A stretch of 64,000 bases of DNA. Source: an uncultured Actinomycetes bacterium (lineage in GTDB: Bacteria; Actinomycetota; Actinomycetes; S36-B12; UBA10799). A program made the translations under genes and the position numbers. The notes under the pieces were generated by a model. That model was not told the origin of the DNA. It searched no databases and was given only the letters and a program-made list of their open reading frames with translations. The first letter of the stretch is position 1. The number at the start of each line of letters is the position of its first letter. The stretch spans positions 535 through 64,534 of the forward strand of contig CAZJNU010000007.1 of assembly GCA_964547485.1 (NCBI GenBank), in the 5' to 3' direction. Below are positions 1-27,288 of this stretch, piece by piece.

Positions 1-849
1 CAGGAACCGCCAGATGGCGTCCGCGGTCGCACCATCATTGCCCAGGAACGGCTGCCGACTCGCACTGAACCAGGCGAACAGGCCCACCGCGATGACCAGA
101 CCCAGCCACAGCCAGCGGAACCGGACCAGCGCAGCCCGATAGCCCAACGCTACCGGTCGACCGACCGGTAGCGAAGCCACGACAACGAAGATCAGCACGG
201 GTAGCAGAAGTCCCTTGGTTCCGGACAGGAAGGCTGCAGCAACCGCAACCAACATGAACAGCCAGTCGCGGGCGATACCGGTTTCCATCGCCCGGACGCA
301 GAAGTACAGCGCAACGCCCGCAGCCAACAGCAGCGGCGCCGCATAGATCGCGACCGACCACCAGGTGATCAATTCCACCGTGAAAAGGGACAGCCCAGCG
401 AAGGCAGCCAGGAACACCCCCAGCCAGCGCGGGCCGCTGAGCCGTTCGGAAATCGCCGCGCAGCTGATCTGGAAACCGGCCATGCAGGCGGCCGAAAAGA
501 GCACGAGGGCAAGGTAGGAGTCAGGAAACAGCCGCTGCAGCAGCCACTGGACGGCCGATCCGATGGGGTTCAGGTGTCCGTTGTGCCCGGCAAAGAGGTA
601 GTCGACACTCAACGGCTGGGTCGCGGCGTTGCGCAACAGGAAGTCGTCACCGACGAAGTACCCGCGTTGGCCGAACCACACCCGGAACAGGAACGTGGCC
701 GCGATCACCGCGCCGGCCAACAGCCAGAAACGACCGCGGCTCAGAGTGCCAGTCCGTAGAGCGGGCAACGAAGCGGCTGCCGACTCGACGTCTTCGGCTT
801 CGCCCAGCACCGCCTCGTCGGTCGTGTCAGCGGTCACGGCCGCGAGCAT
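1..849 (-). CDS. polytopic membrane protein, putative GT-C-type glycosyltransferase (N-terminal part only; 3' end lies beyond the window edge)
   Basis: Own minus-strand translation; absent from the ORF track because no stop lies in the window. ATG at 849-847 gives MLAAVTADTTDEAVLGEAEDVESAAASLPALRTGTLSRGRFWLLAGAVIAATFLFRVWFGQRGYFVGDDFLLRNAATQ... The frame stays open to position 1 through repeated hydrophobic helices. The GDD motif just after TM1 recalls the DDG loop of the Emb-like proteins. Alternative GTG starts at 837 and 810. Confidence 0.5.
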   Translation of the reverse strand, partial: MLAAVTADTTDEAVLGEAEDVESAAASLPALRTGTLSRGRFWLLAGAVIAATFLFRVWFGQRGYFVGDDFLLRNAATQPLSVDYLFAGHNGHLNPIGSAVQWLLQRLFPDSYLALVLFSAACMAGFQISCAAISERLSGPRWLGVFLAAFAGLSLFTVELITWWSVAIYAAPLLLAAGVALYFCVRAMETGIARDWLFMLVAVAAAFLSGTKGLLLPVLIFVVVASLPVGRPVALGYRAALVRFRWLWLGLVIAVGLFAWFSASRQPFLGNDGATADAIWRFL

Positions 850-1795
850 ACCCGTCCTGCTCGCTTGCGGACCGACGGGCGAGATGCCACCGAGCCTGCC
901 GCCGCAATCCATCCTCAGCCGACACCGAAGGTCGCCAGCCGAGCACCGCAGCGGCATGTTCAGCAATACCGGCAGTGACCCGCTGATCACCAGTTTGCGC
1001 AGGGGCCCAGTTGATCCGGGGTTCCGCCCCCAACTCGTCAGCGAGGACAGCCAGCGCGGTCAACAACTCGATCCGCTCGCCGCCCGCAATATTCATTACC
1101 TCACCTGGCAGGCCACGGTCCAACGCCGCCAGCGTCGCGGCGGCGACATCGTCGACGAAAGTATTGCTGCGCGACTGCCGACCGTCGCCGAACACTGTCA
1201 GGGTCTGGCCGTCCAGCATGGCCTCGCAGAAGAGGTGATAGGCCATGTCTGGACGCTGTCCGGGACCGTAGACCGAGAAGTAGCGCAGCACAACAGCATC
1301 CAGTTCGTATTCCCGCACATAGGCAGCCACGAGGTGTTCGGCAGCGGCCTTGGTCACGCCGTAGGGCGATACCGGCCGAATCGGCAGCGACTCATCCCCC
1401 ACTGCTTCCCGGCCGTAGACACTCGAAGTCGACACCTGCACCAACCGCGTGCCTGCGTCGGCGCAGGCGGCCGCCAGCCGCTGCACGACGTTGATGTTGC
1501 AGGAACTGTAGAGCGGGAAATCCGACCAGCTGACTGCCTGCCCCGGCATCGCAGCTTCATTGATGACCACATCGGCCCGCCCGATGAGCCCCACGATTTC
1601 GCACTCTCGAAGGTCGGCCTGCAGGCACTCGAGGCCGGTGGCCGCCAGTTCGTCGAACCGCTGGCGCTTAACCGCTGCTGGGTATGGGCCACCCAGTAGC
1701 GCGTCCACCGCGACGACGTCATGACCCTCGGCGGCCGCCCTCAGTGCGACGGTCGAGCCGATGAAGCCGGCGGCGCCGGTGACCACGATCCGCAT
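827..1795 (-). CDS. NAD-dependent epimerase/dehydratase (extended SDR, UDP-sugar 4-epimerase family)
   Basis: 322-aa ORF with Rossmann motif MRIVVTGAAGFIGS at the N-terminus and a catalytic YxxxK (SPYGVTKAAAE). ATG at 1795-1793. Confidence 0.9.
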   Translation of the reverse strand: MRIVVTGAAGFIGSTVALRAAAEGHDVVAVDALLGGPYPAAVKRQRFDELAATGLECLQADLRECEIVGLIGRADVVINEAAMPGQAVSWSDFPLYSSCNINVVQRLAAACADAGTRLVQVSTSSVYGREAVGDESLPIRPVSPYGVTKAAAEHLVAAYVREYELDAVVLRYFSVYGPGQRPDMAYHLFCEAMLDGQTLTVFGDGRQSRSNTFVDDVAAATLAALDRGLPGEVMNIAGGERIELLTALAVLADELGAEPRINWAPAQTGDQRVTAGIAEHAAAVLGWRPSVSAEDGLRRQARWHLARRSASEQDGYARGRDR

Positions 1796-1868: not shown

Positions 1869-1910
1869 TCAGGGTTTCCGGGCGATCAGGGTTTGCGGGC
1901 GATCAGGGTT
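1869..1910. repeat. 17-bp tandem duplication (2 copies plus an 8-nt partial) spanning the stop codon of the 1886-2935 gene
   Basis: tcagggtttccgggcga (1869-1885) and tcagggtttgcgggcga (1886-1902) differ at one base. They are followed by tcagggtt (1903-1910). The middle copy encodes the C-terminal IARKP plus stop on the minus strand. Confidence 0.8.
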
Positions 1911-2935
1911 ATCCCGGAGCCACACTCGTACAGTCGCTCGATCTCAAGGCCATCCTGCTCACACCAGGACCGGACCTCGTCGGGGGTGTGCCGATGTGCG
2001 TCGGTCGGGTGGTACCAGTCGAAATTGGTGATGACATTGGAGTCCCAGTCCATCGACTCGTTCCAGTAGGCCTTCATCATGTGGTAGTAGATGAACCGCT
2101 GGACATCGTAGGTTCCGGCCTTCATCTCCAACAGCGGAATGTCGACCGGCAGCGTGAACTCTGCCTTGAGTTCGGCTAGCGCTCTGCCTAACTCGGTGAT
2201 CTGGGTACTGACCGCCAGGCACTCCGCCGGCGACATAGAAGTCGTGGTGGCACGGATGAAGTCGTCGGTGAACTCTCGGATCGGGGCCTTCACCTTGTAG
2301 ACGTAGGTGGCGAGCCGGCCGCCCGGCTTCAGCACCGACACCAGCGATCGGAAGGCCTGGTGCGTGTCCGGGGTATGGTGCAGCGCTTGATCACAGGCGA
2401 CCAGGTCGAAGTGGTCAGCTGGAAAGGGGAGCCTCGTCATATCGGCCTGCACGAAGTCGAGGTTCGGGATCTGCCACAGATCTCGGTAGGCGTTCCGGAT
2501 GCCGTAGGAGAAGTCGAGCCCGATCACCTGCGCGGAACTGTTCTCCGCGTACAGCTGCGCGTCCCGGCCATGACCGGTGCCGCAGTCCAAGATCAGTTGG
2601 TCGTCCGCCAGGAATTGCGCCACCTCACCGACGTCGGCGAAGCCGTACCGCTCCAGATACCAGTTCCGGTAGTGGTCAAGGGTGGCCTGCCGATAGTCCG
2701 GCGCCAATTTCCACTTGGTTGAGAAGCTGTCCTGAGTGGCGCGCTGGTCGGGGCCCATCTGCTCCCCAGACACCAGGTCGGGCACTCCGTCGATGATCGG
2801 GAAAACCTCCCGCGACGCCGTGGACAGGCTGCCCAGCAACACCTCGCCACCGAACTCGTCCTCCACCTCGAGCACCATCGGCTCCCCGGATTCAGGTGAC
2901 CTCAGGTGCTCAACCAGACTGTGTTTCAACGACAT
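1886..2935 (-). CDS. class I SAM-dependent methyltransferase
   Basis: 349-aa ORF with motif I LILDCGTGHGRDA, acidic post-I residue (VIGLDFS) and LKPGGRLATYV. A short N-terminal extension resembles a Trm112-like module but lacks the cysteines. The start overlaps the upstream asnB-like stop by 26 nt. Confidence 0.8.
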   Translation of the reverse strand: MSLKHSLVEHLRSPESGEPMVLEVEDEFGGEVLLGSLSTASREVFPIIDGVPDLVSGEQMGPDQRATQDSFSTKWKLAPDYRQATLDHYRNWYLERYGFADVGEVAQFLADDQLILDCGTGHGRDAQLYAENSSAQVIGLDFSYGIRNAYRDLWQIPNLDFVQADMTRLPFPADHFDLVACDQALHHTPDTHQAFRSLVSVLKPGGRLATYVYKVKAPIREFTDDFIRATTTSMSPAECLAVSTQITELGRALAELKAEFTLPVDIPLLEMKAGTYDVQRFIYYHMMKAYWNESMDWDSNVITNFDWYHPTDAHRHTPDEVRSWCEQDGLEIERLYECGSGITLIARKP

Positions 2936-4583
2936 CTCCTGTCTGTGTTCCGGTAGGTAGCGTGAGTTGACGCAGGCATTCGCCGATCAGCAGATCGTTC
3001 CAGGCCCGCCGGTCCAGATCCCGGGCATTGAACACCCACTCATTCACCGGCGCCGGCAGACCATGTTTGACCTGCCGCCGGAGCACGCCGAGGTCGGCTT
3101 CCCCGAGCGACCTCTTCAGCGCCCTGCGCACGATCACCTTGCCGCGACCATTAGCGAACCGCAGCTCTGGTGCCAGCCTGGCCGAGAACTCCACCAGCCG
3201 ATGGTCGAGGAACGGATTGCGAACTTCCAGGCTGTTGGCCATGCTCATCCGGTCGGCCATGGTGAGCAACGGCTGCATGAAGATCTGGGTCTCAACTGCC
3301 GCCAGGTTGTGGGCCAGCGGCACCCCCGCGTCCCACAACGGCGAAATCACGGCCCGCAGGATCTCCTCATCCTCGCGACCATGCCGCGACGCCATCCGGA
3401 CGAATCGATCCAAACCGGTACCGAAATACCGATTGGCGAGCGAACTGTACTGGCTGCTGATGCTCGAGGCGATCCATTCATCTTCGCCGAGCAGGATCTC
3501 GTTTCGGTAGTAGCCGTTGAACAGTTCATCTGCGCCCTCGCCCGACAACACCACTTCGAATCCCGCTGCGCGGGCGGCTCGGCTGAGGCAAAACAGTGGG
3601 TAGATGGAGAAGCTTCCGACCGGAAACTCGATATGCCTGGCGAGTCGTGGCAGGACAGCTGCGAAGTCCTCCCGATCGGGTCTTACGACATGGTTCCGGA
3701 AACCCAACTCATCGGCGAGTTCAGCGGTCAGCGTCTCCTCGTCCAGGAAGCTGCGGAACTCTTCGAACTGCACGGTGAAACTGTCCGACAGCCGCATCAC
3801 CGACTGCACCAGGGAACTGTCAACGCCACCGGACAGGAAGACAGCCACCGGCACATCCGCGTGCCGTCGAAGTTCACACGACTGCGCGAAGATCTGCAGG
3901 AACTCATCGACCGCGTCGTCGAGGTCGACGAGGTCACCGACGTAGGCCGGAAAGTTCCACCATCGTGCCGATTCGGTCTCGCGACCGACGGAATCCCAGT
4001 AGAGCCACTCACCCGGTCGCAGGCTGTGCACTCCACGGAAGGGCGTGTGGGAGTCGAAGTAGAACTCCAACGCGTCACACACCTCCACCGGGGAGTAGGT
4101 CAGGTCGGCGAAGACCTTGAGTTCCGAACCGAACGCGAAACCATCGCCGTCGGTCCGGTAGAACAGCGGTTTCTTGCCGAGTCGGTCCCGTGCCAGGAAG
4201 AACCCCCGGCCGTCCCAGATGGCCAGCGCAAACATGCCGTTGAACCGCGGCAGGCAGTCCTTCCCCCACTCGCGGTACGCGGCCAACACCACCTCGGTGT
4301 CGGTGGAAGTGCTGAACACATGACCCAGTTCGACCAGCTCCCGCCGCAGCTGACGCCAGTTGTAGATCTCGCCGTTGAAGGCGATGGCGGCCGATTCGGC
4401 CTCCCACGGCACCGGCATCGGAGCGGTATCCACAATGCTCAGCCGCGTCATCCCCAGCAGTAGGTTTTCTCCCGCAGGGGTCTCAACCATTCTGCTGCCG
4501 ACCTGATCAGGCCCCCGGTGGGTGAGTGCTGCCAGCGGATTCGAGGTGAGCAGGTGCGGGCTACCCCCGACTATCCCGCACAT
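2910..4583 (-). CDS. asparagine synthase B-type glutamine amidotransferase (polysaccharide amidotransferase candidate)
   Basis: The track ORF starts at 4646. Class II amidotransferases need Cys as the first residue after Met removal, and the internal ATG at 4583-4581 gives MCGIVGG. The GATase-2 segment NGEIYN and the PP-loop FLSGGVDSS of the synthetase domain are present. Confidence 0.85.
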   Translation of the reverse strand: MCGIVGGSPHLLTSNPLAALTHRGPDQVGSRMVETPAGENLLLGMTRLSIVDTAPMPVPWEAESAAIAFNGEIYNWRQLRRELVELGHVFSTSTDTEVVLAAYREWGKDCLPRFNGMFALAIWDGRGFFLARDRLGKKPLFYRTDGDGFAFGSELKVFADLTYSPVEVCDALEFYFDSHTPFRGVHSLRPGEWLYWDSVGRETESARWWNFPAYVGDLVDLDDAVDEFLQIFAQSCELRRHADVPVAVFLSGGVDSSLVQSVMRLSDSFTVQFEEFRSFLDEETLTAELADELGFRNHVVRPDREDFAAVLPRLARHIEFPVGSFSIYPLFCLSRAARAAGFEVVLSGEGADELFNGYYRNEILLGEDEWIASSISSQYSSLANRYFGTGLDRFVRMASRHGREDEEILRAVISPLWDAGVPLAHNLAAVETQIFMQPLLTMADRMSMANSLEVRNPFLDHRLVEFSARLAPELRFANGRGKVIVRRALKRSLGEADLGVLRRQVKHGLPAPVNEWVFNARDLDRRAWNDLLIGECLRQLTLPTGTQTGDVVETQSG

Positions 4584-4657
4584 CGCTGACCTCTCTTCGC
4601 GTCCCGGCCCAGCGGCGGCACCGATACAGTGCTGGGGGCCTACCAACCGTACGACAA

Positions 4658-6835
4658 GTGGAGGGACATCGGGTCGTGGCAGCGAAAGTGGACGTGTCGG
4701 TGGTGGTCCCCTGCCTGAACGAGGAGGCCAACCTGCCGCCGCTGGCGTCGCGGCTGTTCGCTGCGCTGGCTCGGGCGGGTGTCAGTTGCGAGTTGGTGCC
4801 GGTGGACGACGGCAGCACCGACACCACCTGGGACGTGATCCAGACCCTCAGTCGCGCCCATCCGGACGCGATCACCGGCGTCCGGCATGACACCAACCTT
4901 GGGATCCCGGCCGCGTGGCGCAGCGGGATCGCGGCGGCCCGCGGCACTTATGTCTGCCTGATCGATGCCGATCTGCAGAACCCGCCGGAGCAGGTGGTGA
5001 CGCTCTACCGTCGGTTGCTGGAGTCCCGAGCCGACATCTGCCAGGGGGTCCGCTCGCAGATCGAACGAGAGAAGGACGGTCGACTCGCCTTCTCGAAGGG
5101 CCTCAACACCGTCCTGAACGTCGCTTTCGGGGATCGGGCCGCGGACTCAAAGTCGGGCTTTGTGCTCGGACCACGGCGGGTGATGGCGGACGTTGTCGAC
5201 TACCGGGGGGACTACCAGGTCTTCCAGGCCTTCATCCGCGTCGCGGCCCGGGCCAAGGGTTACACGATGGTGGAGGTCGAAACGCTGTTCCTGCCGCGTA
5301 ACGCCGGGGAGTCCTTCCTGGCCGGGTCGCGCGCGTGGAAGGTGTCGGCTGCGACCCTGACCGACTTCCCGACCGCCCTGCGGGAATTCGGCCGGGGACG
5401 CCGCGAGCCGATCGACGGTACGCTGGCCCCCCGATCCCGGCCGGTGCCGCGCGCCGGAACGCCCTACCGAGGTTGGCGACGGGCGCTGTTCGAGGCGTAC
5501 TTCGCCAGTGCACCGATCCACCATCGGCTGGCCCGGCGCCGGGTTCGCTCGCTCTACCTGGAACTCCGCGAGACGCAGTGGCTTCCGCGGCAGGAGTTGG
5601 CGGACCTGCAGTTGCGCAAGTTGCAGCGCCTCGTCCAACACGCGGCGGTCCACGTGCCCTACTACCGTGAGGCCCTCGCCGGAATCGGCCCGGACCCGAT
5701 CGCCGGCCTCGAGGATCTGCGTCGACTTCCGCAGTTGACCAAAGATGATATTCGCGAGCGCCTCTACTTCGACCTGTTCGCCGACACCCACCGAACTCGG
5801 GACATGGTCAAGATGACCACCAGCGGTGCCACCGGTGAGCCCCTCGTGACCTATGTCGACAGGTACCAACTGGAGGTCCGGCTCGCGGTTGCCCTGCGCG
5901 CCGCAGAGTGGTCCGGTTGGCGGTTTGGGGATCGACAACTGCGCATCAGTGATGACTCCGTCGGAATGACGAATTGGCAGCGAATGCGCGCGGGACTGGA
6001 CAATCTGCTGCTCCGACGAGACGAGTTCACCACGGCCGAAGTGGACGACGAGGGGTTGGCCACCATCCTGGACAGCCTCGAGCAGGGCCCACCGTCCCTG
6101 ATCGACGGAAGCGGTGGCACGTTGGATCAGATAGCGACCAGGGCGGCGGCCCATCCCGACCGATACCGCGCCCGCGGCATCATCTCGCGGGCTGCCGACA
6201 TCTCCGCTGAAACCCGGGAACTGGCGGGAAAGGCGCTGCAAGCGCCCGTCCATGACTCCTACGGCACCCGAGAGATCGGCGATATCGCCTTCGGATGTGA
6301 AGCCATGGACGCCGGTGAAGTGCACCATGTGATGGACGAGTCCGTGATCGTGGAGATCCTCGTCGACGGCCGCCCGGCCGAACCTGGCGAAACCGGCGAA
6401 ATAGTGGTGACCGATTTGAACAACTTCTCGGTGCCACTGATCCGTTACCGGGTCGGAGATCTGGCGACCGCGGTGGACGAGTCGCGACCGTGCAGCTGCG
6501 GGCGTGGTCTGAGCCGGATCGGCCGGATCGAGGGGCGCACCCAAGCGAGCGTCCAACTCGCCGACGGAAGCTGGTTGCCGGCGTCGTTCTTCGCACACTT
6601 CTTCCAGGACTACGACTTCCTGGTGCGCCAGTTCCAGGTGTCCCAGGACCAACCTGGACAGTTGCTGCTGCAGATCGTCAAGGGTCCGCAGTGGAGTTTG
6701 GTGGCCGAGGCCGAGGTGCTGACCGAACTTGGCGGGATCGTCTCGGGGACGCCGATAGCGGTGCTGCACGTCGACGCGATCCCGCTCGAGCGGCCCGGTG
6801 ACGACCACAACCTGCGCCCTGGAACGCAACCGTGA
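4658..6835 (+). CDS. fusion protein: N-terminal GT2 (Dpm1-like polyprenyl-phosphate glycosyltransferase) + C-terminal PaaK/CapK/F390-synthetase-like adenylate-forming domain
   Basis: 725 aa with a GTG start. The GT2 part has VSVVVPCLNEEANL, VPVDDGSTD and IDADLQNPPE (DxD). The C-terminal part has LRKLQRLVQHAAVHVPYYRE, MTTSGATGEPL and VVTDLNNFSVPLIRYRVGD, as in phenylacetate-CoA ligase-like enzymes. Confidence 0.8.
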   Translation: MEGHRVVAAKVDVSVVVPCLNEEANLPPLASRLFAALARAGVSCELVPVDDGSTDTTWDVIQTLSRAHPDAITGVRHDTNLGIPAAWRSGIAAARGTYVCLIDADLQNPPEQVVTLYRRLLESRADICQGVRSQIEREKDGRLAFSKGLNTVLNVAFGDRAADSKSGFVLGPRRVMADVVDYRGDYQVFQAFIRVAARAKGYTMVEVETLFLPRNAGESFLAGSRAWKVSAATLTDFPTALREFGRGRREPIDGTLAPRSRPVPRAGTPYRGWRRALFEAYFASAPIHHRLARRRVRSLYLELRETQWLPRQELADLQLRKLQRLVQHAAVHVPYYREALAGIGPDPIAGLEDLRRLPQLTKDDIRERLYFDLFADTHRTRDMVKMTTSGATGEPLVTYVDRYQLEVRLAVALRAAEWSGWRFGDRQLRISDDSVGMTNWQRMRAGLDNLLLRRDEFTTAEVDDEGLATILDSLEQGPPSLIDGSGGTLDQIATRAAAHPDRYRARGIISRAADISAETRELAGKALQAPVHDSYGTREIGDIAFGCEAMDAGEVHHVMDESVIVEILVDGRPAEPGETGEIVVTDLNNFSVPLIRYRVGDLATAVDESRPCSCGRGLSRIGRIEGRTQASVQLADGSWLPASFFAHFFQDYDFLVRQFQVSQDQPGQLLLQIVKGPQWSLVAEAEVLTELGGIVSGTPIAVLHVDAIPLERPGDDHNLRPGTQP

Positions 6836-7632
6836 CCGACGCCAAGTTCTCCCGTTACCACTCCTGGCAGCAACGACTGCGCGGCCGGTTGACCAGTGGC
6901 CCGAGGCTTGCCCCCGACTCCCCGGCGGTGGCGATTCGGGAGGCGGTACTGGCCGATCCCTACCTCGCCAGCGCCTACAGCGAGATGTACGGCGGCCTCC
7001 GCGGGATCATTCCGCCGGCAATCTCGGGTCCAATCGTGGAACTCGGGGCCGGGGCGGATATGGGCCGAGCCTGGATTCCTACGATGTTGACCACCGACGT
7101 GTTGGCCAACGAATCCCTCGACGCTGTGCTGAGCGCGGCCGCCATGCCCTTCCGCGACGCCGCAATTGGAGCATTCGTCGTCAACGACGCCCTGCACCAC
7201 TTCCCCGATGTGGACGGATTCCTGGACGAGGCGGTTCGCTGTCTGGAAGTGGGTGGCGCCATCGTTGCCTGTGAGCCCTACTGGGGCCCGCTCTCGGCGG
7301 CCATCTACCGCGCCTTCCACCCAGAGCCGTTCAACCGGAGAGCCCCGTCGTGGTCGTCCGGCTCAGCAGATCCCTGGGACTCCAACCAGGCGCTGCTGTG
7401 GATCATGTTGCGACGAGACCGCCGTCGACTCACCGCCCGCTGGCCAATGCTGCGGATCGAGGAATTCGGGTGCACGCTCGGCCCGAGCTACCTGCTGTCA
7501 GGCGGTGTATTCGGCAGGACGCCGATACCGGCCGACTGGCTGCTGTCGACCTGGCGCTGGGAGCAGCGGCAGGGCCGGCGGTTCGACCCACTCCGGTTCA
7601 AGTACCTGGTCAGGTTCACTAGGGTCGGGTAG
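6832..7632 (+). CDS. SAM-dependent methyltransferase (Methyltransf_11-like)
   Basis: 266 aa. The GTG start forms a GTGA overlap with the upstream stop. Motif I IVELGAGADMG, then VVNDALHHFPD and LEVGGAIVACEP. Confidence 0.7.
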   Translation: MTDAKFSRYHSWQQRLRGRLTSGPRLAPDSPAVAIREAVLADPYLASAYSEMYGGLRGIIPPAISGPIVELGAGADMGRAWIPTMLTTDVLANESLDAVLSAAAMPFRDAAIGAFVVNDALHHFPDVDGFLDEAVRCLEVGGAIVACEPYWGPLSAAIYRAFHPEPFNRRAPSWSSGSADPWDSNQALLWIMLRRDRRRLTARWPMLRIEEFGCTLGPSYLLSGGVFGRTPIPADWLLSTWRWEQRQGRRFDPLRFKYLVRFTRVG

Positions 7633-7649
7633 AACAATCGCGACTGTCT

Positions 7650-9155
7650 GTGCTGACCAGCGAGAATCGGGGCCTGGGTATGACCACGTTGACATCGGAC
7701 GCTCTGCACCGAGGTTCCCGCTTCCTCCGAGAGCACCTGGCCACCAGGGCCCGCTTCCTCTCCGCGAACAGCGCCTTCGTGGCCCGCCGCAGGCAGCGCA
7801 ACAGCTTCTTTCACGAGCAGGTGAATAGACTTGTGGCGTCCCAGACGGCCGGTGGCCGGACCATCATCGATGTCGGCTGCGCGGATGGACTCACCTTGGC
7901 GGCCTGCAATCACGAGCATCCAATCGGGATAGACGTCGACCAGGCCGCCATCGAGGAAGCCCGCAGACTCCTACCAGAGGCTGACTTCGTCGAGGCTGCG
8001 ATCGAGGATGTCGAGGCCAGCCCGGCGACCGCACCCGACCACATTGTGATGTCGTTGCTGTTGGACGAGGTGTACGACGCGGACCCAGTTCTTCGTAAGA
8101 TCCGCAGTTGGTGCGTGCCCGACACGCGGGTCGTGGTGGTGACCTACAACCGACTCTGGCGCCCCGCACTCCGCGTCGCGGAACGTCTAAGACTGAAGGT
8201 CCGCACGGACAACGAGAACTACATTCCGTGGGTGGAGTTGGAGAACCTGTTGGCGGTCACAGGTTTCGAAACCGCGAAACGACTGGACGGGATCCTGCTA
8301 CCAGTGCAGATACCGTTGGTCTCCCGGTTCACGAACAGGTGGATCGCGCCGCTGCCGGTCATCAGACAGCTGAGTATGGTCCGGGTGACGGTGGCCCGCC
8401 CCGTCACCCGGACCGTTACGCCGCCGACCTCCGTGAGCGTCGTGGTGGCGGCCCGGAACGAAGCAGGGAATATCGACCAGTTGATCGAGCGCGTGCCGAA
8501 GATGGCCGTCGACCAGGAGATCGTGTTCGTGGAAGGCGGCTCCACCGACGACACCTGGGAGGTGATCGGCGAGGCGGTAGCCAACGGACAGTCGTGGAAC
8601 GGCACCCGGCTGCGCGCGCTGCGCCAGCCGGGAACAGGGAAGGGGGACGCGGTGCGGGCCGGCTTCGATGCGGCCACCGGGGAAGTGCTGGTGATCCTCG
8701 ACGCCGACCTCTCGGTGCCGCCGGAGGAACTCCCGCGGTTCGTTGCGGCCGTGACGGAAGATGCCTGCGAGTTCGCCAACGGTTCCCGACTGGTGTACCC
8801 GATGGACAGCGAAGCCATGCGCTTCCTCAACCTGGTCGGCAACAAACTCTTCGGGAACCTCTTCACGTTTCTGCTGAGCCAACCCATCCGAGACACCTTG
8901 TGTGGCACAAAGGCTCTCCGGGCCGATGCGTACCGCCGGATCGCTGCGGGTAGATCCCAACTGGGCGAGTTCGACCCGTTCGGCGATTTCGACCTGCTAT
9001 TCGGCGCTTCCCGGCTAGGGCTTCGCATCCGCGATATCCCGGTGCACTACAAGGAGCGAACCTACGGGGCGACGAACATCTCGCGATTCAGTCATGGCGT
9101 CCTGCTGCTCCGAATGAGTCGGGTGGCAGCGCTGCGCCTGAAGTTCGTGGGATGA
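7650..9155 (+). CDS. fusion protein: N-terminal SAM methyltransferase + C-terminal GT2 glycosyltransferase
   Basis: 501 aa. The MTase part has IIDVGCADGLTLAA and DHIVMSLLLDEV. The GT2 part has VSVVVAARNEAGNI, VFVEGGSTDDT and ILDADLSVPPEE (DxD). GTG at 7650; alternative ATG at 7680. Confidence 0.8.
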   Translation: MLTSENRGLGMTTLTSDALHRGSRFLREHLATRARFLSANSAFVARRRQRNSFFHEQVNRLVASQTAGGRTIIDVGCADGLTLAACNHEHPIGIDVDQAAIEEARRLLPEADFVEAAIEDVEASPATAPDHIVMSLLLDEVYDADPVLRKIRSWCVPDTRVVVVTYNRLWRPALRVAERLRLKVRTDNENYIPWVELENLLAVTGFETAKRLDGILLPVQIPLVSRFTNRWIAPLPVIRQLSMVRVTVARPVTRTVTPPTSVSVVVAARNEAGNIDQLIERVPKMAVDQEIVFVEGGSTDDTWEVIGEAVANGQSWNGTRLRALRQPGTGKGDAVRAGFDAATGEVLVILDADLSVPPEELPRFVAAVTEDACEFANGSRLVYPMDSEAMRFLNLVGNKLFGNLFTFLLSQPIRDTLCGTKALRADAYRRIAAGRSQLGEFDPFGDFDLLFGASRLGLRIRDIPVHYKERTYGATNISRFSHGVLLLRMSRVAALRLKFVG

Positions 9156-11035
9156 CGTCGGACCAGGCCCGAGCCGAGAGCCTCCCGACGGGCCGCGCCG
9201 GGGGCCGCCGTCAGGGCCCGTGGGCCGCGCTACTCGCGGTGCTGACCTTCTCCCCGACCGTTCTGCTGGTGATCAGTCAAGCCCTCAATGTGGGCCATCC
9301 CTACACACTCGGTGGCAGTGTCGCGCTCAGTGACAGTGCCGGGTGGAATGCCTGCGCGAGCGCCCTGGCAACCGCGCACGAGTCCGCCCACAAGGCCGAC
9401 TGGTGCCTTCGCCGTCCGATGGCCTTCATCCTCGAGGCCGGCTACTTTCCGGTAGTTCCCGCCAGCACGGCGGCAGTTATGGTTGTTCAGACTTCGCTGC
9501 TGGGCCTGGCCGCGTGGGTGATGCTGGTCGTGACTCGTCGCCGATTGCGGGCCCCCTTCTGGGCGTTGGCGGTCGCGGCGGTCGCCCTGATCTGGCCGAT
9601 CTTCAGCTACGGGGGCTCTGTTGGGCCAGAGGGGGTGTGCCTGCTGCTGTCGCTGGTATCGGCCGCGATGTTGCTGCAGTTCCTGCACGATCGGCGCCCC
9701 TGGTGGGGTGCGGGCAGCGCTGCTTTGCTGATCCTTGCCTTGCAGGCACGCCCTGGGAACATCCCCCTCACAGCGGCCGTCTGCCTGGACGTCGTGGGCG
9801 TCGTCTACCTGTCGCTGCGACGACGCCGTCTGGCCGCCGGCATTGGCGTCGGACTTGTCGCACTCTGGGTTTTGCCGAATCAACTACTGCGGTTGGCCGG
9901 AATGAAGGAGGCCGGGAACGGCGGCAATTTCTGGTACACCCTCTACTCCGCAGCAACTCCCGAGTCGGACAAGTGGTCCGACGCAGCCAGCAAGTTCCGC
10001 GATCAGCTGCAATCGGGACAACCGGAGTCCGTCGCGTTCGAGCGAGCCAAGAGCGCGGCACTTGAACTGCTCGCGCAAGATCCCTCCTACTTCCTCACCC
10101 AGTTGCGCACCAACATCGACACCTTCCTCAGCCAAGGATTCGTCAACCTGGCACTGGGAAACCCGGTACGGCTGGCTTGGGACGCGGGCATCGTCCCCGC
10201 CACTCAGCCACTGCTCGGGCTCGTCAGCCTCGCCGGTTTCGCCGCATCCTGGCTATTTCTGTTGACATTGGTTGGGGCCCTGGCCGTGGCGATCGCACGG
10301 CGACACCGCGACCGACCATGGCCGATTGAGGACCGCGTCCGCACCCATCTGGTAGTCCTGGGCCTCATCTGTTTCGTCGGAGCAGCGGGGTTCTTCGCCG
10401 TCGCAGGTCACGACGAGGCGACTCGGCACTTGGTGCAGAACATCCCGTTCCTGCTGGTCTCCTGGATCGCCGGCCTGACCCTGCTGACCACCCTCCGCCG
10501 ACCCGTCCCAATCATCGATGAAGCAACCGACGGGGCCCCCGACGAGCGCCCGAGCCTTGCACTGTCAAGGCTCGGCGGGGTCTCCAGCACCGGGATCCGG
10601 ACCGTGGCGATCACTTATGGCGCCGTGGTGCTGGCGCTGGCGCTGGTGGCAGGGGCTGAAGGACGCGTTTCGCCGACGTCCCTGACGATCGCGAGCAGTT
10701 GTGATCCCGGCGCGTCGACGGGTCGCTGGACCGTCATCGGATCCGCGCCGGTCCACACGTCGCGGCGGGTCGCGGCTCCACTGGAGTGGCGTCGGCAGTC
10801 GGGACAGCCGGCTGACCTCTTCCTGGGTGAAGGCAGTTGGTTGAACCGAGAGATGCAACGACTGCCCGCCGGGGTAGTGCTAGCGCTCAGAGACCAGGAA
10901 AGTGGGAACGTCTTGCCCGCCTTCCTGGCCGACTCCGATGACAGTCCTTACTGCTTCCGGACGGCACCCGCGGATACGGCAGCGGGGATTCTAGGACTGC
11001 GGCTCCTCAACCCCGCACCTGCCGACGAACGCTGA
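9152..11035 (+). CDS. polytopic membrane protein with C-terminal soluble domain (possible GT-C-type transferase; function unproven)
   Basis: 627 aa with an ATGA overlap onto the upstream GT2 stop. Many hydrophobic helices fill the first ~450 aa, and the last ~150 aa are hydrophilic. I recognised no catalytic motif. Confidence 0.6.
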   Translation: MTSDQARAESLPTGRAGGRRQGPWAALLAVLTFSPTVLLVISQALNVGHPYTLGGSVALSDSAGWNACASALATAHESAHKADWCLRRPMAFILEAGYFPVVPASTAAVMVVQTSLLGLAAWVMLVVTRRRLRAPFWALAVAAVALIWPIFSYGGSVGPEGVCLLLSLVSAAMLLQFLHDRRPWWGAGSAALLILALQARPGNIPLTAAVCLDVVGVVYLSLRRRRLAAGIGVGLVALWVLPNQLLRLAGMKEAGNGGNFWYTLYSAATPESDKWSDAASKFRDQLQSGQPESVAFERAKSAALELLAQDPSYFLTQLRTNIDTFLSQGFVNLALGNPVRLAWDAGIVPATQPLLGLVSLAGFAASWLFLLTLVGALAVAIARRHRDRPWPIEDRVRTHLVVLGLICFVGAAGFFAVAGHDEATRHLVQNIPFLLVSWIAGLTLLTTLRRPVPIIDEATDGAPDERPSLALSRLGGVSSTGIRTVAITYGAVVLALALVAGAEGRVSPTSLTIASSCDPGASTGRWTVIGSAPVHTSRRVAAPLEWRRQSGQPADLFLGEGSWLNREMQRLPAGVVLALRDQESGNVLPAFLADSDDSPYCFRTAPADTAAGILGLRLLNPAPADER

Positions 11036-11088
11036 TTGGTGCCAGCGTCCTCGCGAACCATACTCACGACTGGCCTTAGTCTGTGGTC

Positions 11089-12210
11089 ATGAAACTGCGG
11101 CACCCACCAGCGGCTGCGCTGCAACTTCGGCTGTTGCACCGACGGTTCCCGGTCGTGGTGGCGATCATCGCCTTGATCCTGAGTGGCTGCGGGGCTCAAT
11201 CGGCCGCCTCGCTGCTGGCCCCACCGTCCATCGCCGCAGTGCCGTCCAGCCTTCCCCAGTCCCCCGCGCAAGCAGATCAACAGCGAGCCGAACTAGCCAT
11301 GGCCATGTTCGGCACTCGGGATCTTTCAGGCGCCAACTACGGCACCACCGCGGTGACGCCAGCGAACCAGGACACGATCCCGCTCAGTCTGCGTCCGCTG
11401 GTGGTGGGCAGCTACATGCTGACAGTTCCACTGAAGTTCGAACTCTCCTCGAATGTTCGGGTACTCATCCCGGCAGCTCCACGTCACTGCGTCCTGCTGT
11501 GGCACGGAGGTCATGCAGCCGATGCGTATATCTCCGGCGGCGAGAAGGTGGTGCATGATGCTCTCGTCGCCAACTGCCGCGTCGCTGTTCTCGATATGCC
11601 GCTACACGGCGCCAACGCCGGTATCCCTGCCAGGACCAACGATGGTCGAATCGTCGACCCACAGAGACCCGACCCATACTCCCTGCACAACGATCTGTCC
11701 TGGCTGGACCCGGATAACAGTGGAGCTGCCCTCAGCTTGTTCATAGCCCCGGTGGTAGCCACGGTCGACCACTTCCTGAAGGCCAACCCCGCCAGCGACA
11801 TCACTCTGGCCGGTTTCTCAGGTGGTGGCTGGACGACAACCGTCGCCGCGGCCGTTGATCCACGGATCAGACATTCGGTGGAGGTTGCCGGCAGCCAACC
11901 CTTCGCGGATCTCAGTTCCTGCGCGGGCGACTACGAGCAGTGCCATCCGGCTCTGTTCGGCAGAGTCTCGATGACGCAGATCTATGTGCTTGCCTCCCAA
12001 GGCCTGTTCCGTGAACACGTGCAGTTCCTGAACTACTACGACACCTGCTGCTACTCGCACATCGACGGCAAGGCCTACACCGAGGTGGTGCAGCAGTCCG
12101 TCTCTGCGTCAGGCGGTGGCCTCTTCTTGATGTTCCCCGACTACACCCTGCAGACGCATGCGATCCCGGCTGCCGCTCAAGGATGGATTGCGGCGTGGCT
12201 GGCGCGCTGA
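11089..12210 (+). CDS. exported lipoprotein, alpha/beta-hydrolase fold (esterase-like)
   Basis: Signal peptide with lipobox (VVVAIIALILSGCGAQS) and a nucleophile elbow GFSGGGW (GxSxG). ATG at 11089; the track ORF starts at the GTG at 11083. Confidence 0.65.
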   Translation: MKLRHPPAAALQLRLLHRRFPVVVAIIALILSGCGAQSAASLLAPPSIAAVPSSLPQSPAQADQQRAELAMAMFGTRDLSGANYGTTAVTPANQDTIPLSLRPLVVGSYMLTVPLKFELSSNVRVLIPAAPRHCVLLWHGGHAADAYISGGEKVVHDALVANCRVAVLDMPLHGANAGIPARTNDGRIVDPQRPDPYSLHNDLSWLDPDNSGAALSLFIAPVVATVDHFLKANPASDITLAGFSGGGWTTTVAAAVDPRIRHSVEVAGSQPFADLSSCAGDYEQCHPALFGRVSMTQIYVLASQGLFREHVQFLNYYDTCCYSHIDGKAYTEVVQQSVSASGGGLFLMFPDYTLQTHAIPAAAQGWIAAWLAR

Positions 12211-20853: not shown

Positions 20854-21029
20854 GACTTCCTCCAAGTAAAGGAACGGCAACGTTCGGAAGGTACTGCATT
20901 TCGGGCCATGATGGCTGATCATCGCCATATTCGGCACCGTGTTCTGACTTGCCCGGACCAGGGGCACGCCGCAGGAGCCGCAGTTGGCCCTATCGTTGGG
21001 TCCCAATCGAAGCGATGCAGGAGGTGGCG

Positions 21030-27167: not shown

Positions 27168-27288
27168 TGAAGCTCCCCCTGCGCCGGGTGTGACGGCAGC
27201 CGGACCGACGTCGTCGAGACGGACGAATCTCCGCCCGCTTCAGGTTAGTCTGGACCACCCCGGAAATTCGGCGTTGGGAAGGATCACG

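What the first reader, a model, noticed from the sequence alone, without database searches (positions are those of the whole stretch)
1886..11035. Divergent tailoring operons consistent with synthesis of a modified lipid-linked sugar donor
Seen: a 74-bp divergent region (4584-4657) separates two gene runs. On the minus strand lie asnB-like, methyltransferase and epimerase genes with a start/stop overlap at 2910-2935. On the plus strand lie the GT2-PaaK fusion, a methyltransferase, the MT-GT2 fusion and a 627-aa polytopic membrane protein, joined by GTGA (6832) and ATGA (9152) overlaps. Established: the pattern of a cytoplasmic GT2 followed by a membrane GT-C partner underlies mycobacterial arabinan decorations, such as GalN via PpgS/Rv3779 and methylthioxylose via Rv0539-Rv0541c. 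AsnB-like enzymes amidate uronic acids in O-antigen and capsule loci. Inference: these genes make a polyprenyl-phosphate sugar that is amidated or acylated and methylated. The 627-aa membrane protein would then transfer it to the polymer.
Basis: partly seen in the sequence, partly recalled or inferred. Interest (0 to 1): 0.7.

Follow-up and report, generated by a model that had tools for sequence, protein, structure and literature searches.

The report
Two lipid-linked sugar donor modules, joined
In an uncultured actinobacterium, two separate gene sets that each load a sugar onto a membrane lipid and pass it to a membrane transferase outside the cell have been joined into one locus; one set belongs to a widespread, unstudied enzyme-fusion family that in actinobacteria sits next to relatives of the ethambutol-target Emb enzymes.

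Summary
The genes, domains, the 74-bp divergent gap and the GTGA/ATGA overlaps are at the stated coordinates. All genes are under purifying selection against a sister genome (dN/dS 0.06-0.21). The "lipid-linked sugar donor plus GT-C transferase" reading is supported in kind. Both GT2 domains best match DPMS, ArnC and GtrB. The 627-aa protein models confidently (pLDDT 91) and resembles only GT-C enzymes, not transporters. However, this is not one linear pathway. Comparative contexts split it into two modules. Module A is ancestral: a UDP-GlcA-4-epimerase-like SDR, the GT2-CapK/PaaK fusion, a lipoprotein and two Emb-family GT-Cs. Module B is inserted: MT, MT-GT2 and the 627-aa GT-C, and it occurs alone in other lineages. 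The fusion family spans at least seven phyla. Its recurrent neighbours are SDR epimerases, a methyltransferase and a GT-C, which is Emb-like in Actinobacteria and PMT_2 in Acidobacteria. In this lineage alone the CapK half departs at 32% of family-conserved positions and has lost the A10 catalytic lysine, yet it remains constrained. Sugar identity (galacturonate-type, amidated or methylated) is inference. Verdict: a new variant of a known kind, moderately interesting.

The parts
1..849 (-). N-terminal 282 residues of a 632-aa polytopic membrane protein ('U3'). It has about 11 TM helices and a GDDF motif after TM1. It is the last gene of the minus-strand run, and its start overlaps the SDR stop by 23 nt. 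It may be a glycosyltransferase, but its fold was not established.
   Evidence: Profile-profile comparison with the 627-aa family was negative (probability 1.9%). No Pfam hit on record.
827..1795 (-). Extended SDR, UDP-glucuronate 4-epimerase-like. Proposed to make UDP-GalA.
   Evidence: Pfam Epimerase E=1e-50. Best PDB matches are 6zl6, a B. cereus UDP-GlcA 4-epimerase series (203 bits), and MoeE5 (183 bits). The alignment keeps T126/S127/S128, Y149, K153 and the carboxylate-binding R185 (residue roles from PMC12338863). Orthologue present in L006 and L086.
1886..2935 (-). Class I SAM methyltransferase (MT1) with an N-terminal Trm112-like zinc-ribbon region. Translationally coupled to AsnB.
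   Evidence: Methyltransf_11 E=5e-21. Top NCBIfam hit is the DVU_1556 family, below cut-off; Trm112 hit at residues 4-55. dN/dS 0.063.
2910..4583 (-). Glutamine-dependent AsnB-type amidotransferase (557 aa from MCGIVGG).
   Evidence: GATase_7 plus Asn_synthase. TIGR01536 scores 365 bits against a cut-off of 267. N-terminal Cys2 and the SGGVDS PP-loop are visible in the sequence. dN/dS 0.065.
4584..4657 (.). Divergent intergenic region between the two gene runs (74 bp; 92 bp with the annotated GTG at 4676).
   Evidence: No sigma-70 consensus match was found, which is uninformative for a 65% GC actinobacterium.
4658..5407 (+). GT2 domain of the fusion protein, of the polyprenyl-phosphate sugar synthase type (DAD motif).
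   Evidence: Glycos_transf_2 E=2e-23. The family profile best matches DPMS 5mlz, ArnC and GtrB. It keeps 75 of 76 family-conserved positions. dN/dS 0.057.
5558..6835 (+). CapK/PaaK-like (ANL) domain of the fusion. It is atypical in this lineage: the A10 lysine motif is lost and 69 of 216 family-conserved positions are changed, yet the domain is still under purifying selection.
   Evidence: NCBIfam DVU_1553 and PaaK hits, below cut-offs. PF27533 CapK_C in relatives. PaaK structures 4r1l and 2y4o match. Divergence statistics. 118 of 120 relatives keep TGK. dN/dS 0.09 overall, 0.16 for the C-terminal subdomain.
6832..7632 (+). 266-aa methyltransferase-like protein (MT2). It is the conserved partner of the MT-GT2 fusion.
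   Evidence: Weak Methyltransf_11 hit. Homologue sits directly upstream of MT-GT2 in L093 (47% identity) and next to it in L091 (37%).
7650..9155 (+). MT-GT2 fusion: an N-terminal SAM methyltransferase plus a DPMS/ArnC/AglJ-like polyprenyl-phosphate sugar synthase. This is the second donor synthase.
   Evidence: It belongs to a very large family with the same architecture. DAD motif seen in the sequence.
9152..11035 (+). 627-aa membrane protein of a small, unclassified GT-C-like family, with a C-terminal beta-rich outside domain. Proposed transferase for the MT-GT2 product.
   Evidence: No Pfam, NCBIfam or PDB sequence hit. 91 representatives among 1.84 billion proteins. 7 of 58 relatives weakly hit PMT_2. 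AF2 model pLDDT 91, pTM 0.93. Foldseek top hits are all GT-C. D61, R200 and R425 are conserved. Adjacent to MT-GT2 in L091 and L096.
11083..12210 (+). 375-aa predicted lipoprotein (LSGC lipobox) with a GFSGG serine-hydrolase-like motif. Conserved next to the Emb-like genes in relatives.
   Evidence: Sequence. No family hit. Homologues in L006 (340 bits) and L086 (110 bits).
12214..15120 (-). Emb-family GT-C (Emb1).
   Evidence: PF04602 E=3e-21. EmbC and EmbA match by sequence, and SDDGWVLTTAR aligns with EmbC ADDGYILTMAR.
15111..17975 (-). Emb-family paralogue (Emb2). Its stop overlaps the Emb1 start.
   Evidence: Paralogous to Emb1 (197-211 bits). FDDGWVLTTVR motif seen in the sequence. No Pfam hit of its own.

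Best explanation
The region is a composite cell-envelope glycan-decoration locus of an uncultured actinobacterium (GCA_964269095.1). It holds two polyprenyl-phosphate-sugar donor modules that feed extracytoplasmic GT-C transferases.

Module A is ancestral and shared with relatives.
- A UDP-GlcA-4-epimerase-like SDR (827-1795) supplies a nucleotide sugar, probably UDP-GalA.
- The GT2 half of the GT2-CapK protein (4658-6835) puts that sugar on polyprenyl phosphate.
- The fused CapK/PaaK-like half, in relatives, presumably uses ATP to activate a carboxylate on the lipid-linked sugar.
- Emb-family GT-Cs (12214-17975) are the conserved transferases.
- A conserved lipoprotein with a serine-hydrolase motif (11083-12210) goes with them.

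Module B was inserted between the fusion and the lipoprotein, and is translationally coupled to the fusion.
- MT2 (6832-7632) and the MT-GT2 fusion (7650-9155) make a second, probably methylated, polyprenyl-P-sugar.
- The 627-aa protein (9152-11035), which founds a small new GT-C-like family, transfers it.

In this lineage the second SDR found in relatives is replaced by a divergent AsnB-MT1 pair. The CapK half has lost its A10 lysine but stays constrained. The chemistry done on the module A sugar has therefore most likely shifted, with amidation by AsnB and/or methylation by MT1.

Shown: domain types, GT-C fold, modularity, conservation, and loss of the lysine motif.
Inferred: lipid carrier use, sugar identity, what is amidated or methylated, and which GT-C uses which donor.
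For: Domains.

Both GT2 domains best match DPMS, ArnC and GtrB.

The SDR keeps the UGAepi carboxylate-binding residues.

Fusion family contexts:
- SDR directly upstream with an Emb-like GT-C directly downstream in Nocardioides piscis, Nanopelagicales and another MAG.
- A PMT_2 GT-C in an Acidobacteriaceae locus, and polytopic proteins with no family hit in others.

The closest relative, L006, has SDR(-), SDR(+), the fusion, the lipoprotein, Emb1 and Emb2, but none of AsnB, MT1, MT2, MT-GT2 or the 627-aa gene.

Module B occurs alone: MT2 + MT-GT2 in L093, and MTs + MT-GT2 + a 627-family GT-C in L091 and L096.

627-aa fold. Conserved Asp in loop 1.

CapK divergence: 69 of 216 against 1 of 76 for the GT2 domain, and 1-16 of about 185 in 20 other members. 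A10 TGK is present in 118 of 120 relatives and absent here and in the sister genome.

Purifying selection on every gene and on both halves of the fusion.
Against: - No biochemical data exist for any of these families; nothing was found in the literature searches.
- Neither GT2 domain reaches the curated cut-off of any named polyprenyl-P synthase family, and no TM or interface helices were predicted in them.
- Foldseek TM-scores for the 627-aa model are low (0.26-0.37, E 2e-4 to 1e-2), and the protein itself has no Pfam hit.
- Translational coupling of the fusion to MT2 (GTGA) would also fit one joint pathway.
- In Polyangiaceae/Sorangium loci the gene after the fusion is a DUF362 protein, and no GT-C was seen nearby.
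- Loci with fusion + MT + AsnB (L023, L026) keep the A10 lysine, so AsnB is not simply a replacement for CapK.
- No flippase gene lies within 1-18 kb.
- GC3 is uniform, so the 'insertion' rests on synteny comparison only.
Confidence: 0.6

Rival explanations
1. All genes from AsnB to the 627-aa protein build one amidated or acylated and methylated polyprenyl-P-sugar, and the 627-aa GT-C transfers it.
For: The plus-strand genes are translationally coupled: GTGA at 6832, a 17-nt gap, then ATGA at 9152. The whole arrangement is kept in the sister genome. Both runs diverge from one 74-bp region.
Against: - There are two separate synthase-type GT2 domains.
- MT2 + MT-GT2 + the 627-family GT-C occur without the fusion or AsnB elsewhere.
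- The fusion occurs with Emb-like or PMT_2 GT-Cs and without module B in all other loci examined.
- The CapK A10 lysine is lost.
Confidence: 0.15
2. AsnB (with MT1) is not part of the glycan chemistry. It would be a housekeeping asparagine synthetase or a peptidoglycan-amidating LtsA/AsnB-type enzyme that merely lies next to the locus.
For: It exceeds the generic asparagine synthase equivalog cut-off (365 against 267 bits). It is absent from the homologous locus of the closest relative. From my own knowledge, actinobacterial AsnB/LtsA enzymes amidate peptidoglycan.
Against: - It overlaps MT1 by 20-26 nt. The run continues into the sugar epimerase and a polytopic membrane protein on the same strand.
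- Fusion-MT-AsnB operons are found in a gammaproteobacterial MAG and a Patescibacteria MAG.
- AsnB-like genes (WbpS type) are listed in polysaccharide clusters (PMC3684757).
Confidence: 0.2
3. The GT2 enzymes are ordinary cytoplasmic polymer- or repeat-unit-building glycosyltransferases of a capsule-, teichuronic-acid- or O-antigen-like pathway. The big membrane proteins would be polymerases, ligases or exporters rather than GT-C sugar transferases.
For: GT2 is a broad family, and no curated polyprenyl-P synthase cut-off is reached. In Protaetiibacter the fusion lies in a classic polysaccharide cluster with UDP-sugar dehydrogenase, aminotransferase and GT61 genes.
Against: - The best structural relatives of both GT2 domains are the three solved polyprenyl-P synthase types.
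- No Wzx/Wzy, ABC exporter or priming phosphoglycosyltransferase lies within 1-18 kb.
- The 627-aa model matches GT-C enzymes; MFS and other transporters score at probability 0.4 or below.
- Emb1 carries the Emb catalytic DDG motif.
Confidence: 0.1

Closest known systems
Mycobacterial/corynebacterial arabinogalactan GalN decoration (PpgS GT2 + Rv3779/Cgp_0658 GT-C)
   Same: A cytoplasmic GT2 loads a sugar on polyprenyl phosphate. The sugar is modified at the lipid-linked stage, and a GT-C adds it to a wall polymer (PMC9671496). The window also encodes Emb-like and AftD-like GT-Cs.
   Different: There is no orthology: the PpgS model scores 33 bits against a cut-off of 370. The synthases here are fused to a CapK-like domain or to a methyltransferase. 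The 627-aa GT-C belongs to no described family.
Rhizobium RgtE + RgtA-D/F (bactoprenyl-phosphate-GalA synthase plus ArnT-like GalA transferases)
   Same: This is a precedent for a uronic acid carried on polyprenyl phosphate and transferred by GT-C enzymes (PMC7663294). It fits the UDP-GlcA-4-epimerase-like SDR in module A.
   Different: The acceptor there is LPS lipid A/core in Gram-negative bacteria. There is no fused adenylating domain and no AsnB or MT partners. GalA as the sugar here is an inference.
ArnA-ArnC-ArnD-ArnT (L-Ara4N modification of lipid A)
   Same: The logic is the same: SDR chemistry on UDP-GlcA, a GT2 synthase (ArnC is among the best structural matches), transient chemical masking of the lipid-linked sugar, and a GT-C transferase (ArnT is the top Foldseek hit for the 627-aa model).
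   Different: The tailoring enzymes differ (formyltransferase and deformylase there; CapK, AsnB and MT here). The ArnC NCBIfam model scores 65 and 57 bits against a cut-off of 529. The cell envelope type also differs.
CapK/VpsH-type PaaK-like proteins of capsule and VPS loci
   Same: The CapK_C domain is the same (PF27533). VpsH has been suggested to activate a uronate carboxylate with ATP for amino-acid amide formation (PMC13463779).
   Different: Those are stand-alone proteins in Wzx/Wzy-type pathways, and their chemistry is itself unproven. Here the domain is fused to a polyprenyl-P synthase, and in this window it lacks the A10 lysine.
Mycobacterial EmbA/B/C arabinofuranosyltransferases
   Same: Emb1 reaches the PF04602 gathering score. 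It aligns its DDGWVLTTAR with the EmbC DDGYILTMAR catalytic loop.
   Different: The match is only about 46 bits to solved Emb proteins, and these proteins are about 960 aa against about 1100. In relatives they are operon partners of a GT2-CapK synthase. No UbiA/DprE-type decaprenyl-phospho-arabinose genes were seen among the window ORFs scanned. The donor sugar may therefore not be arabinofuranose.

Membership tests
GT-C glycosyltransferase superfamily (627-aa protein) | Polytopic N-terminal membrane domain with a conserved acidic residue in the first extracytoplasmic loop | tested here: met
   About 11 TM helices. D61, just after TM1, is conserved in at least 90% of 58 family members. R200 and R425 are invariant.
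GT-C glycosyltransferase superfamily (627-aa protein) | Fold similarity to solved GT-C structures | tested here: met
   The model has pLDDT 91 and pTM 0.93. The top 15 Foldseek hits (all probability 1.0) are all GT-C (ArnT, STT3, PglB, EmbA/B/C, Pmt4); ALG9 and ALG12 follow lower at probability 0.97-1.0; transporters score at 0.4 or below. Caveat: TM-scores are only 0.26-0.37 and the best E-value is 2.4e-4.
GT-C glycosyltransferase superfamily (627-aa protein) | Sequence membership of a described GT-C family (Pfam/CAZy) | tested here: not met
   No Pfam, NCBIfam or PDB sequence hit for the protein or its family profile. Only 7 of 58 distant relatives hit PMT_2 weakly.
GT-C glycosyltransferase superfamily (627-aa protein) | Transfer from a polyprenyl-phosphate-linked sugar | not testable with these tools
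   Needs biochemistry.
Polyprenyl-phosphate glycosyl synthases of GT2 (DPMS/ArnC/GtrB/PpgS type), both GT2 domains | GT-A Glycos_transf_2 domain with a DxD motif | tested here: met
   PF00535 E=2e-23 and 5e-24. IDADLQ and LDADLS motifs are visible in the sequence.
Polyprenyl-phosphate glycosyl synthases of GT2 (DPMS/ArnC/GtrB/PpgS type), both GT2 domains | Closest solved relatives are polyprenyl-P synthases | tested here: met
   5mlz DPMS, 9hwj/9bhc/8vxh ArnC and 5ekp GtrB rank above all other GT2 structures.
Polyprenyl-phosphate glycosyl synthases of GT2 (DPMS/ArnC/GtrB/PpgS type), both GT2 domains | Reaches the curated cut-off of a named synthase family | tested here: not met
   ArnC 65 and 57 bits against 529; PpgS 33 against 370; AglJ 90 against 325.
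ANL / PaaK-like adenylate-forming enzymes (CapK half of the fusion) | Nucleotide-binding core motifs (A3 P-loop, A5, A7, A8) | tested here: met
   TSGATGEP, YGTRE, TDLNN and RYRVGD are retained. PaaK structures match the family profile.
ANL / PaaK-like adenylate-forming enzymes (CapK half of the fusion) | A10 catalytic lysine (PxxxxGK) | tested here: not met
   The family has IPLLRTGKRSPVVS; the window has IPLERPGDDHNL. 118 of 120 relatives keep TGK. The sister genome's tail is also unconserved. The role of the A10 lysine rests on my general knowledge of ANL enzymes.
AsnB-type glutamine-dependent amidotransferases | N-terminal catalytic Cys, GATase plus Asn_synthase domains, SGGxDS PP-loop, curated cut-off | tested here: met
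   MCGIVGG start and SGGVDS motif. Pfam domains. TIGR01536 scores 365 against 267 bits. The substrate (a sugar carboxylate, aspartate or peptidoglycan) was not testable.
UDP-glucuronate 4-epimerase (827-1795) | Extended SDR with YxxxK, plus the carboxylate-holding Thr/Ser cluster and Arg185 of BcUGAepi | tested here: met
   The alignment to 6zl6 keeps T126, S127, S128, Y149, K153 and R185. Residue roles come from PMC12338863. Activity was not testable.
Emb arabinosyltransferase family (12214-15120, 15111-17975) | PF04602 above the gathering score and the DDG(Y/W)xLTxAR catalytic loop | tested here: met
   Emb1 scores 76 bits against 25. The motif aligns to EmbC. Emb2 has the motif but no Pfam hit of its own.
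Emb arabinosyltransferase family (12214-15120, 15111-17975) | Use of decaprenyl-phospho-D-arabinofuranose made by the UbiA/DprE1/DprE2 route | tested here: inconclusive
   No such genes were found among the window ORFs scanned. The rest of the genome was not examined.
Mycobacterial PpgS/Rv3779 and MtxS/MtxT systems | Orthology of the GT2 and GT-C components | tested here: not met
   The PpgS model scores 33 bits against 370. The 627-aa protein has no detectable sequence relative among named families.

The most novel reading that the evidence does not exclude
The GT2-CapK fusion, together with SDR epimerases, a methyltransferase and a GT-C, would define a widespread and so far unstudied class of lipid-linked sugar donor system. 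In it, the synthase itself carries an ATP-dependent domain that chemically edits the sugar, probably at a uronate carboxylate, while it is on polyprenyl phosphate. In Actinobacteria outside the mycolic-acid group this system, rather than the PRPP/UbiA/DprE route, would supply the donor used by Emb-family GT-Cs. Emb enzymes would then have begun as transferases of a GT2-made sugar. The conserved extracytoplasmic lipoprotein with a serine-hydrolase motif could unmask the sugar after flipping, as ArnD does. The window's lineage would be a natural experiment: the editing domain lost its catalytic lysine, and AsnB/MT1 plus a second donor module with a new GT-C family were recruited.
Probability: 0.25. 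Interest if true: 0.75.

Novelty: new variant of a known kind. Interest (0 to 1): 0.55.

Why it matters
Emb proteins are the targets of ethambutol, and their evolutionary origin and ancestral donor substrate are unknown. In Nocardioides, Nanopelagicales-type freshwater actinobacteria and this MAG, Emb-family genes are operon partners of a GT2-CapK synthase and sugar epimerases. This gives a concrete hypothesis that can be tested in culture, because Nocardioides piscis and Protaetiibacter intestinalis carry the fusion. It would show what Emb-like enzymes do outside mycobacteria. The fusion family has hundreds of members across at least seven phyla and no assigned function. It would also add a new way of tailoring sugars on the lipid carrier. 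The 627-aa protein adds a small new GT-C-like family whose conserved partner is a methyltransferase-synthase fusion. If these ideas fail, the locus is still a well-resolved example of modular assembly of envelope-decoration genes.

Tried and rejected
1. CapK half as a decaying pseudo-domain: rejected. dN/dS against the sister genome is 0.09 (0.06 for the N-subdomain), similar to the GT2 half. Only the extreme C-terminus drifts.
2. Loss of the A10 motif through a frameshift: rejected. No other frame encodes GKRSPVVS.
3. AsnB as a simple functional replacement for the dead CapK step: weakened. L023 and L026 have AsnB and MT beside fusions that keep the lysine.
4. Recent horizontal insertion of module B or of AsnB-MT1, judged from composition: no signal. 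GC3 is 0.74-0.86 throughout.
5. The 632-aa upstream membrane proteins as members of the 627-aa family: not supported (hhalign probability 1.9%).
6. The first AlphaFold run, with a 5-sequence alignment, was unusable (pLDDT 42). It was rescued with 58 sequences from the exhaustive search.
7. Sequence searches of the 627-aa protein and of the 375-aa lipoprotein against PDB, Pfam and NCBIfam gave nothing.
8. Literature searches for the GT2-CapK fusion, DVU_1553/1556 and Emb-like proteins outside mycolata found nothing relevant.
9. The sigma-70 promoter and terminator scan was uninformative.
10. My greedy ORF calling in high-GC loci was noisy. Neighbour counts from it are lower bounds, so I relied on the precomputed gene calls where available.

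Full report
**1. Observation**

The window is a 65% GC actinobacterial chromosome segment. It is identical to a contig of MAG GCA_964269095.1, labelled Actinomycetota.

| Coordinates | Strand | Assignment |
|---|---|---|
| 827-1795 | - | Extended SDR epimerase/dehydratase |
| 1886-2935 | - | Class I methyltransferase with a Trm112-like N-terminus |
| 2910-4583 | - | Glutamine-dependent AsnB-type amidotransferase (MCGIVGG start, SGGVDS loop, TIGR01536 365 bits against 267) |
| 4658-6835 | + | GT2 fused to a PaaK/CapK-like ANL domain |
| 6832-7632 | + | Weak methyltransferase-like protein |
| 7650-9155 | + | Methyltransferase fused to a second GT2 |
| 9152-11035 | + | 627-aa, roughly 11-TM protein with no family hit |

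The GTGA and ATGA overlaps, the 20-26-nt AsnB/MT overlap and the 74-bp divergent gap were read directly.

A sister genome (L089) keeps the same order. Every gene there has dS 0.30-0.63 and dN/dS 0.06-0.21. These are therefore real, expressed-protein genes and not chance ORFs.

The minus-strand run continues, overlapping the SDR stop by 23 nt, into a 632-aa polytopic protein whose N-terminus fills window 1-849. Two Emb-family GT-Cs and a lipoprotein lie directly downstream.

**2. What the parts are**

*GT2 domains.* Both carry a DAD motif. Among all solved structures they best match the three known polyprenyl-phosphate sugar synthase types: Pyrococcus DPMS, ArnC and GtrB. Neither reaches a curated family cut-off.

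*SDR.* Its best solved relatives are the B. cereus UDP-glucuronate 4-epimerase series (6zl6, 203 bits) and MoeE5. The alignment preserves the Thr-Ser-Ser cluster, Tyr149, Lys153 and Arg185. These residues hold the substrate carboxylate (PMC12338863).

*The 627-aa protein.* It had only five close relatives in the indexed search. An exhaustive profile search found 91 representatives among 1.84 billion proteins. Seven of 58 distant members weakly hit PMT_2. With that deeper alignment AlphaFold gave pLDDT 91 and pTM 0.93. A first attempt with five sequences had failed. The top 15 Foldseek hits, all at probability 1.0, are all GT-C enzymes: ArnT, STT3, PglB, EmbA/B/C and Pmt4; ALG9 and ALG12 follow lower at probability 0.97-1.0. 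Transporters score at probability 0.4 or below. TM-scores are modest, at 0.26-0.37. Asp61, just after TM1, is conserved in at least 90% of the family, and two arginines are invariant. It is GT-C-like but belongs to no described family.

**3. The fusion family and its partners**

The GT2-CapK architecture is not peculiar to this genome.
- 460 proteins scored in the indexed search. The best 120 are mostly full-length (82-99% of the query covered) at 47-64% identity.
- Named members come from Nanopelagicales, Acidimicrobiia, Protaetiibacter, Nocardioides and Gemmatimonas.
- A scan of species-representative genomes found 268 relatives. Full-length fusions occur in Polyangiaceae/Sorangium, Vicinamibacteria, Terriglobia, Bdellovibrionota, Alpha- and Gammaproteobacteria and Patescibacteria.

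Reading the neighbourhoods gave these recurrent partners:
- An SDR epimerase lies directly upstream, often overlapping, in at least 12 of 28 loci.
- A class I methyltransferase is often present.
- A large polytopic protein lies directly downstream.
  - It is an Emb-family (PF04602) protein in Nocardioides piscis, a Nocardioides MAG, a Nanopelagicales MAG and two further actinobacterial MAGs.
  - It is a PMT_2 GT-C in an Acidobacteriaceae MAG.
  - It is an unclassified 10-TM or 595-aa protein elsewhere.
- LPG_synthase_TM, a possible flippase, appears twice.
- AsnB-like genes follow fusion + MT in a gammaproteobacterial and a Patescibacteria MAG.
- In Polyangiaceae the next gene is a DUF362 protein, and no GT-C was seen nearby.

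**4. Two modules**

*Module A.* The closest relative's locus (L006, 63% identity) reads SDR(-), SDR(+), fusion, lipoprotein homologue, Emb1, Emb2. It has no detectable AsnB, MT1, MT2, MT-GT2 or 627-aa gene. The Nanopelagicales locus is similar.

*Module B.* MT2 + MT-GT2 occur together without the fusion in L093 (47% and 63% identity). MTs + MT-GT2 + a 627-family GT-C occur together in L091 and L096, where the GT-C is 35-36% identical.

The window is therefore the ancestral module A, into which module B has been inserted and translationally coupled. The second SDR has been replaced by a divergent AsnB-MT1 pair. GC3 is uniform, so the event is not recent.

**5. An atypical CapK half**

| Measure | GT2 half (window) | CapK half (window) | CapK half, 20 other members |
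|---|---|---|---|
| Departures from positions at least 90% conserved | 1 of 76 | 69 of 216 | 1-16 of about 185 |

The A10 motif IPLLRTGKRSPVVS has become IPLERPGDDHNL. 118 of 120 relatives keep TGK. The sister genome's tail differs again. No frameshift explains the change.

Even so, dN/dS is 0.09 for the domain and 0.06 for its N-subdomain. The domain is retained for some function, but canonical adenylation is doubtful. That last point rests on my general knowledge of ANL enzymes.

Because L023 and L026 combine AsnB with lysine-bearing fusions, AsnB is not simply a substitute.

**6. Mechanism proposed**

*Shown:* the domain types, the fold, the modularity and the conservation.

*Inferred:*
- In module A the SDR makes UDP-GalA, and the GT2 half makes polyprenyl-P-GalA.
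- Carboxylate-directed enzymes then tailor it. These are the CapK half in relatives, and AsnB and perhaps MT1 here.
- Emb-family GT-Cs place it on a wall polymer.
- The lipoprotein with a GFSGG motif may act outside the membrane.
- In module B the MT-GT2 protein with MT2 makes a methylated polyprenyl-P-sugar, which the 627-aa GT-C transfers.

*Precedents:*
- PpgS/Rv3779 (PMC9671496).
- RgtE with the Rgt GT-Cs for lipid-linked GalA (PMC7663294).
- The Arn pathway (from my own knowledge).
- The suggestion that CapK-like VpsH activates a uronate carboxylate for amide formation (PMC13463779).

**7. Comparison and novelty**

The logic is the known scheme of polyprenyl-P-sugar synthase plus GT-C periplasmic decoration. 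Four things are not described in anything I could find:
- the fusion of the synthase to a CapK-like domain;
- its operon linkage to Emb-family proteins outside mycolic-acid bacteria;
- the methyltransferase-synthase fusion paired with a new GT-C-like family;
- the lineage-specific loss of the A10 lysine.

I classify it as a new variant of a known kind. It is right about the type of system and about the 627-aa protein. It is wrong in treating everything as one pathway and in tying it specifically to mycobacterial-type decorations.

**8. Limits**

- There is no biochemistry, and sugar identity rests on one SDR's similarity.
- Neighbour statistics come from 28 loci.
- Foldseek TM-scores are low.
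- No flippase lies in the region.
- The rest of the genome was not examined.

Noticed in passing
window 22174-26394 (-), with 26391-27167 (-) and 27109-28455 (+): A 1406-aa AftD homologue (GT-C_AftD E=1e-224, with CBM_AftD and F5/8 type C domains). A Methyltransf_11 gene overlaps it upstream, and a GT4 glycosyltransferase diverges from that pair. The organism therefore has AftD-type as well as Emb-type GT-Cs.
   Followed up: partly
window 19648-21006 (-): A 452-aa protein with a strong PorA porin domain (PF11271, E=3e-52), next to rpsA (17997-19469). This may hint at an outer-membrane-like layer in this actinobacterium.
   Followed up: no
L002 361-2235 (+), 2287-4185 (+), 4276-6174 (-); the last one is window 1-849 (-): Three paralogous proteins of about 630 aa with 10-11 TM helices, no family hit and a DD motif after TM1. 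The two tandem copies are about 59% identical overall, but their C-terminal ~150 residues are nearly identical. That suggests gene conversion or an assembly artefact. They are unrelated by profile to the 627-aa family.
   Followed up: partly
window 11083-12210 (+): A 375-aa predicted lipoprotein (LSGC lipobox) with a GFSGG serine-hydrolase-like motif and no database family. It is conserved beside Emb-like genes in L006, and forms the C-terminal part of a 765-aa protein in the Nanopelagicales locus L086.
   Followed up: partly
window 28836-30677 (-) and 30826-32127 (+): A 613-aa protein with about 11 TM helices and a 433-aa protein with about 14 TM helices, neither with any Pfam hit, next to the AftD/GT4 genes. 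They are candidates for a further glycosyltransferase and a flippase.
   Followed up: no
window 39470-41989 (-): An 839-aa fusion of a sugar-1-phosphate nucleotidylyltransferase (NTP_transferase plus hexapeptide domains) with a full phosphoglucomutase/phosphomannomutase.
   Followed up: no
window 4658-6835 and 1886-2935: The best NCBIfam hit of the CapK half is the DVU_1553 family ligase. The best hit of MT1 is the DVU_1556 family methyltransferase. Both are below cut-off. By their names, the two families come from neighbouring genes of one Desulfovibrio locus, which hints at a wider ligase-methyltransferase partnership. No literature was found.
   Followed up: partly
window 629-1699 (+), 2967-4463 (+), 5147-6829 (-), 8108-9028 (both strands): Long antisense or shadow ORFs (269-560 aa) lie opposite the real genes. 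This is typical of high-GC DNA. They have no family hits in the gene calls of the source record, and I treat them as spurious.
   Followed up: partly
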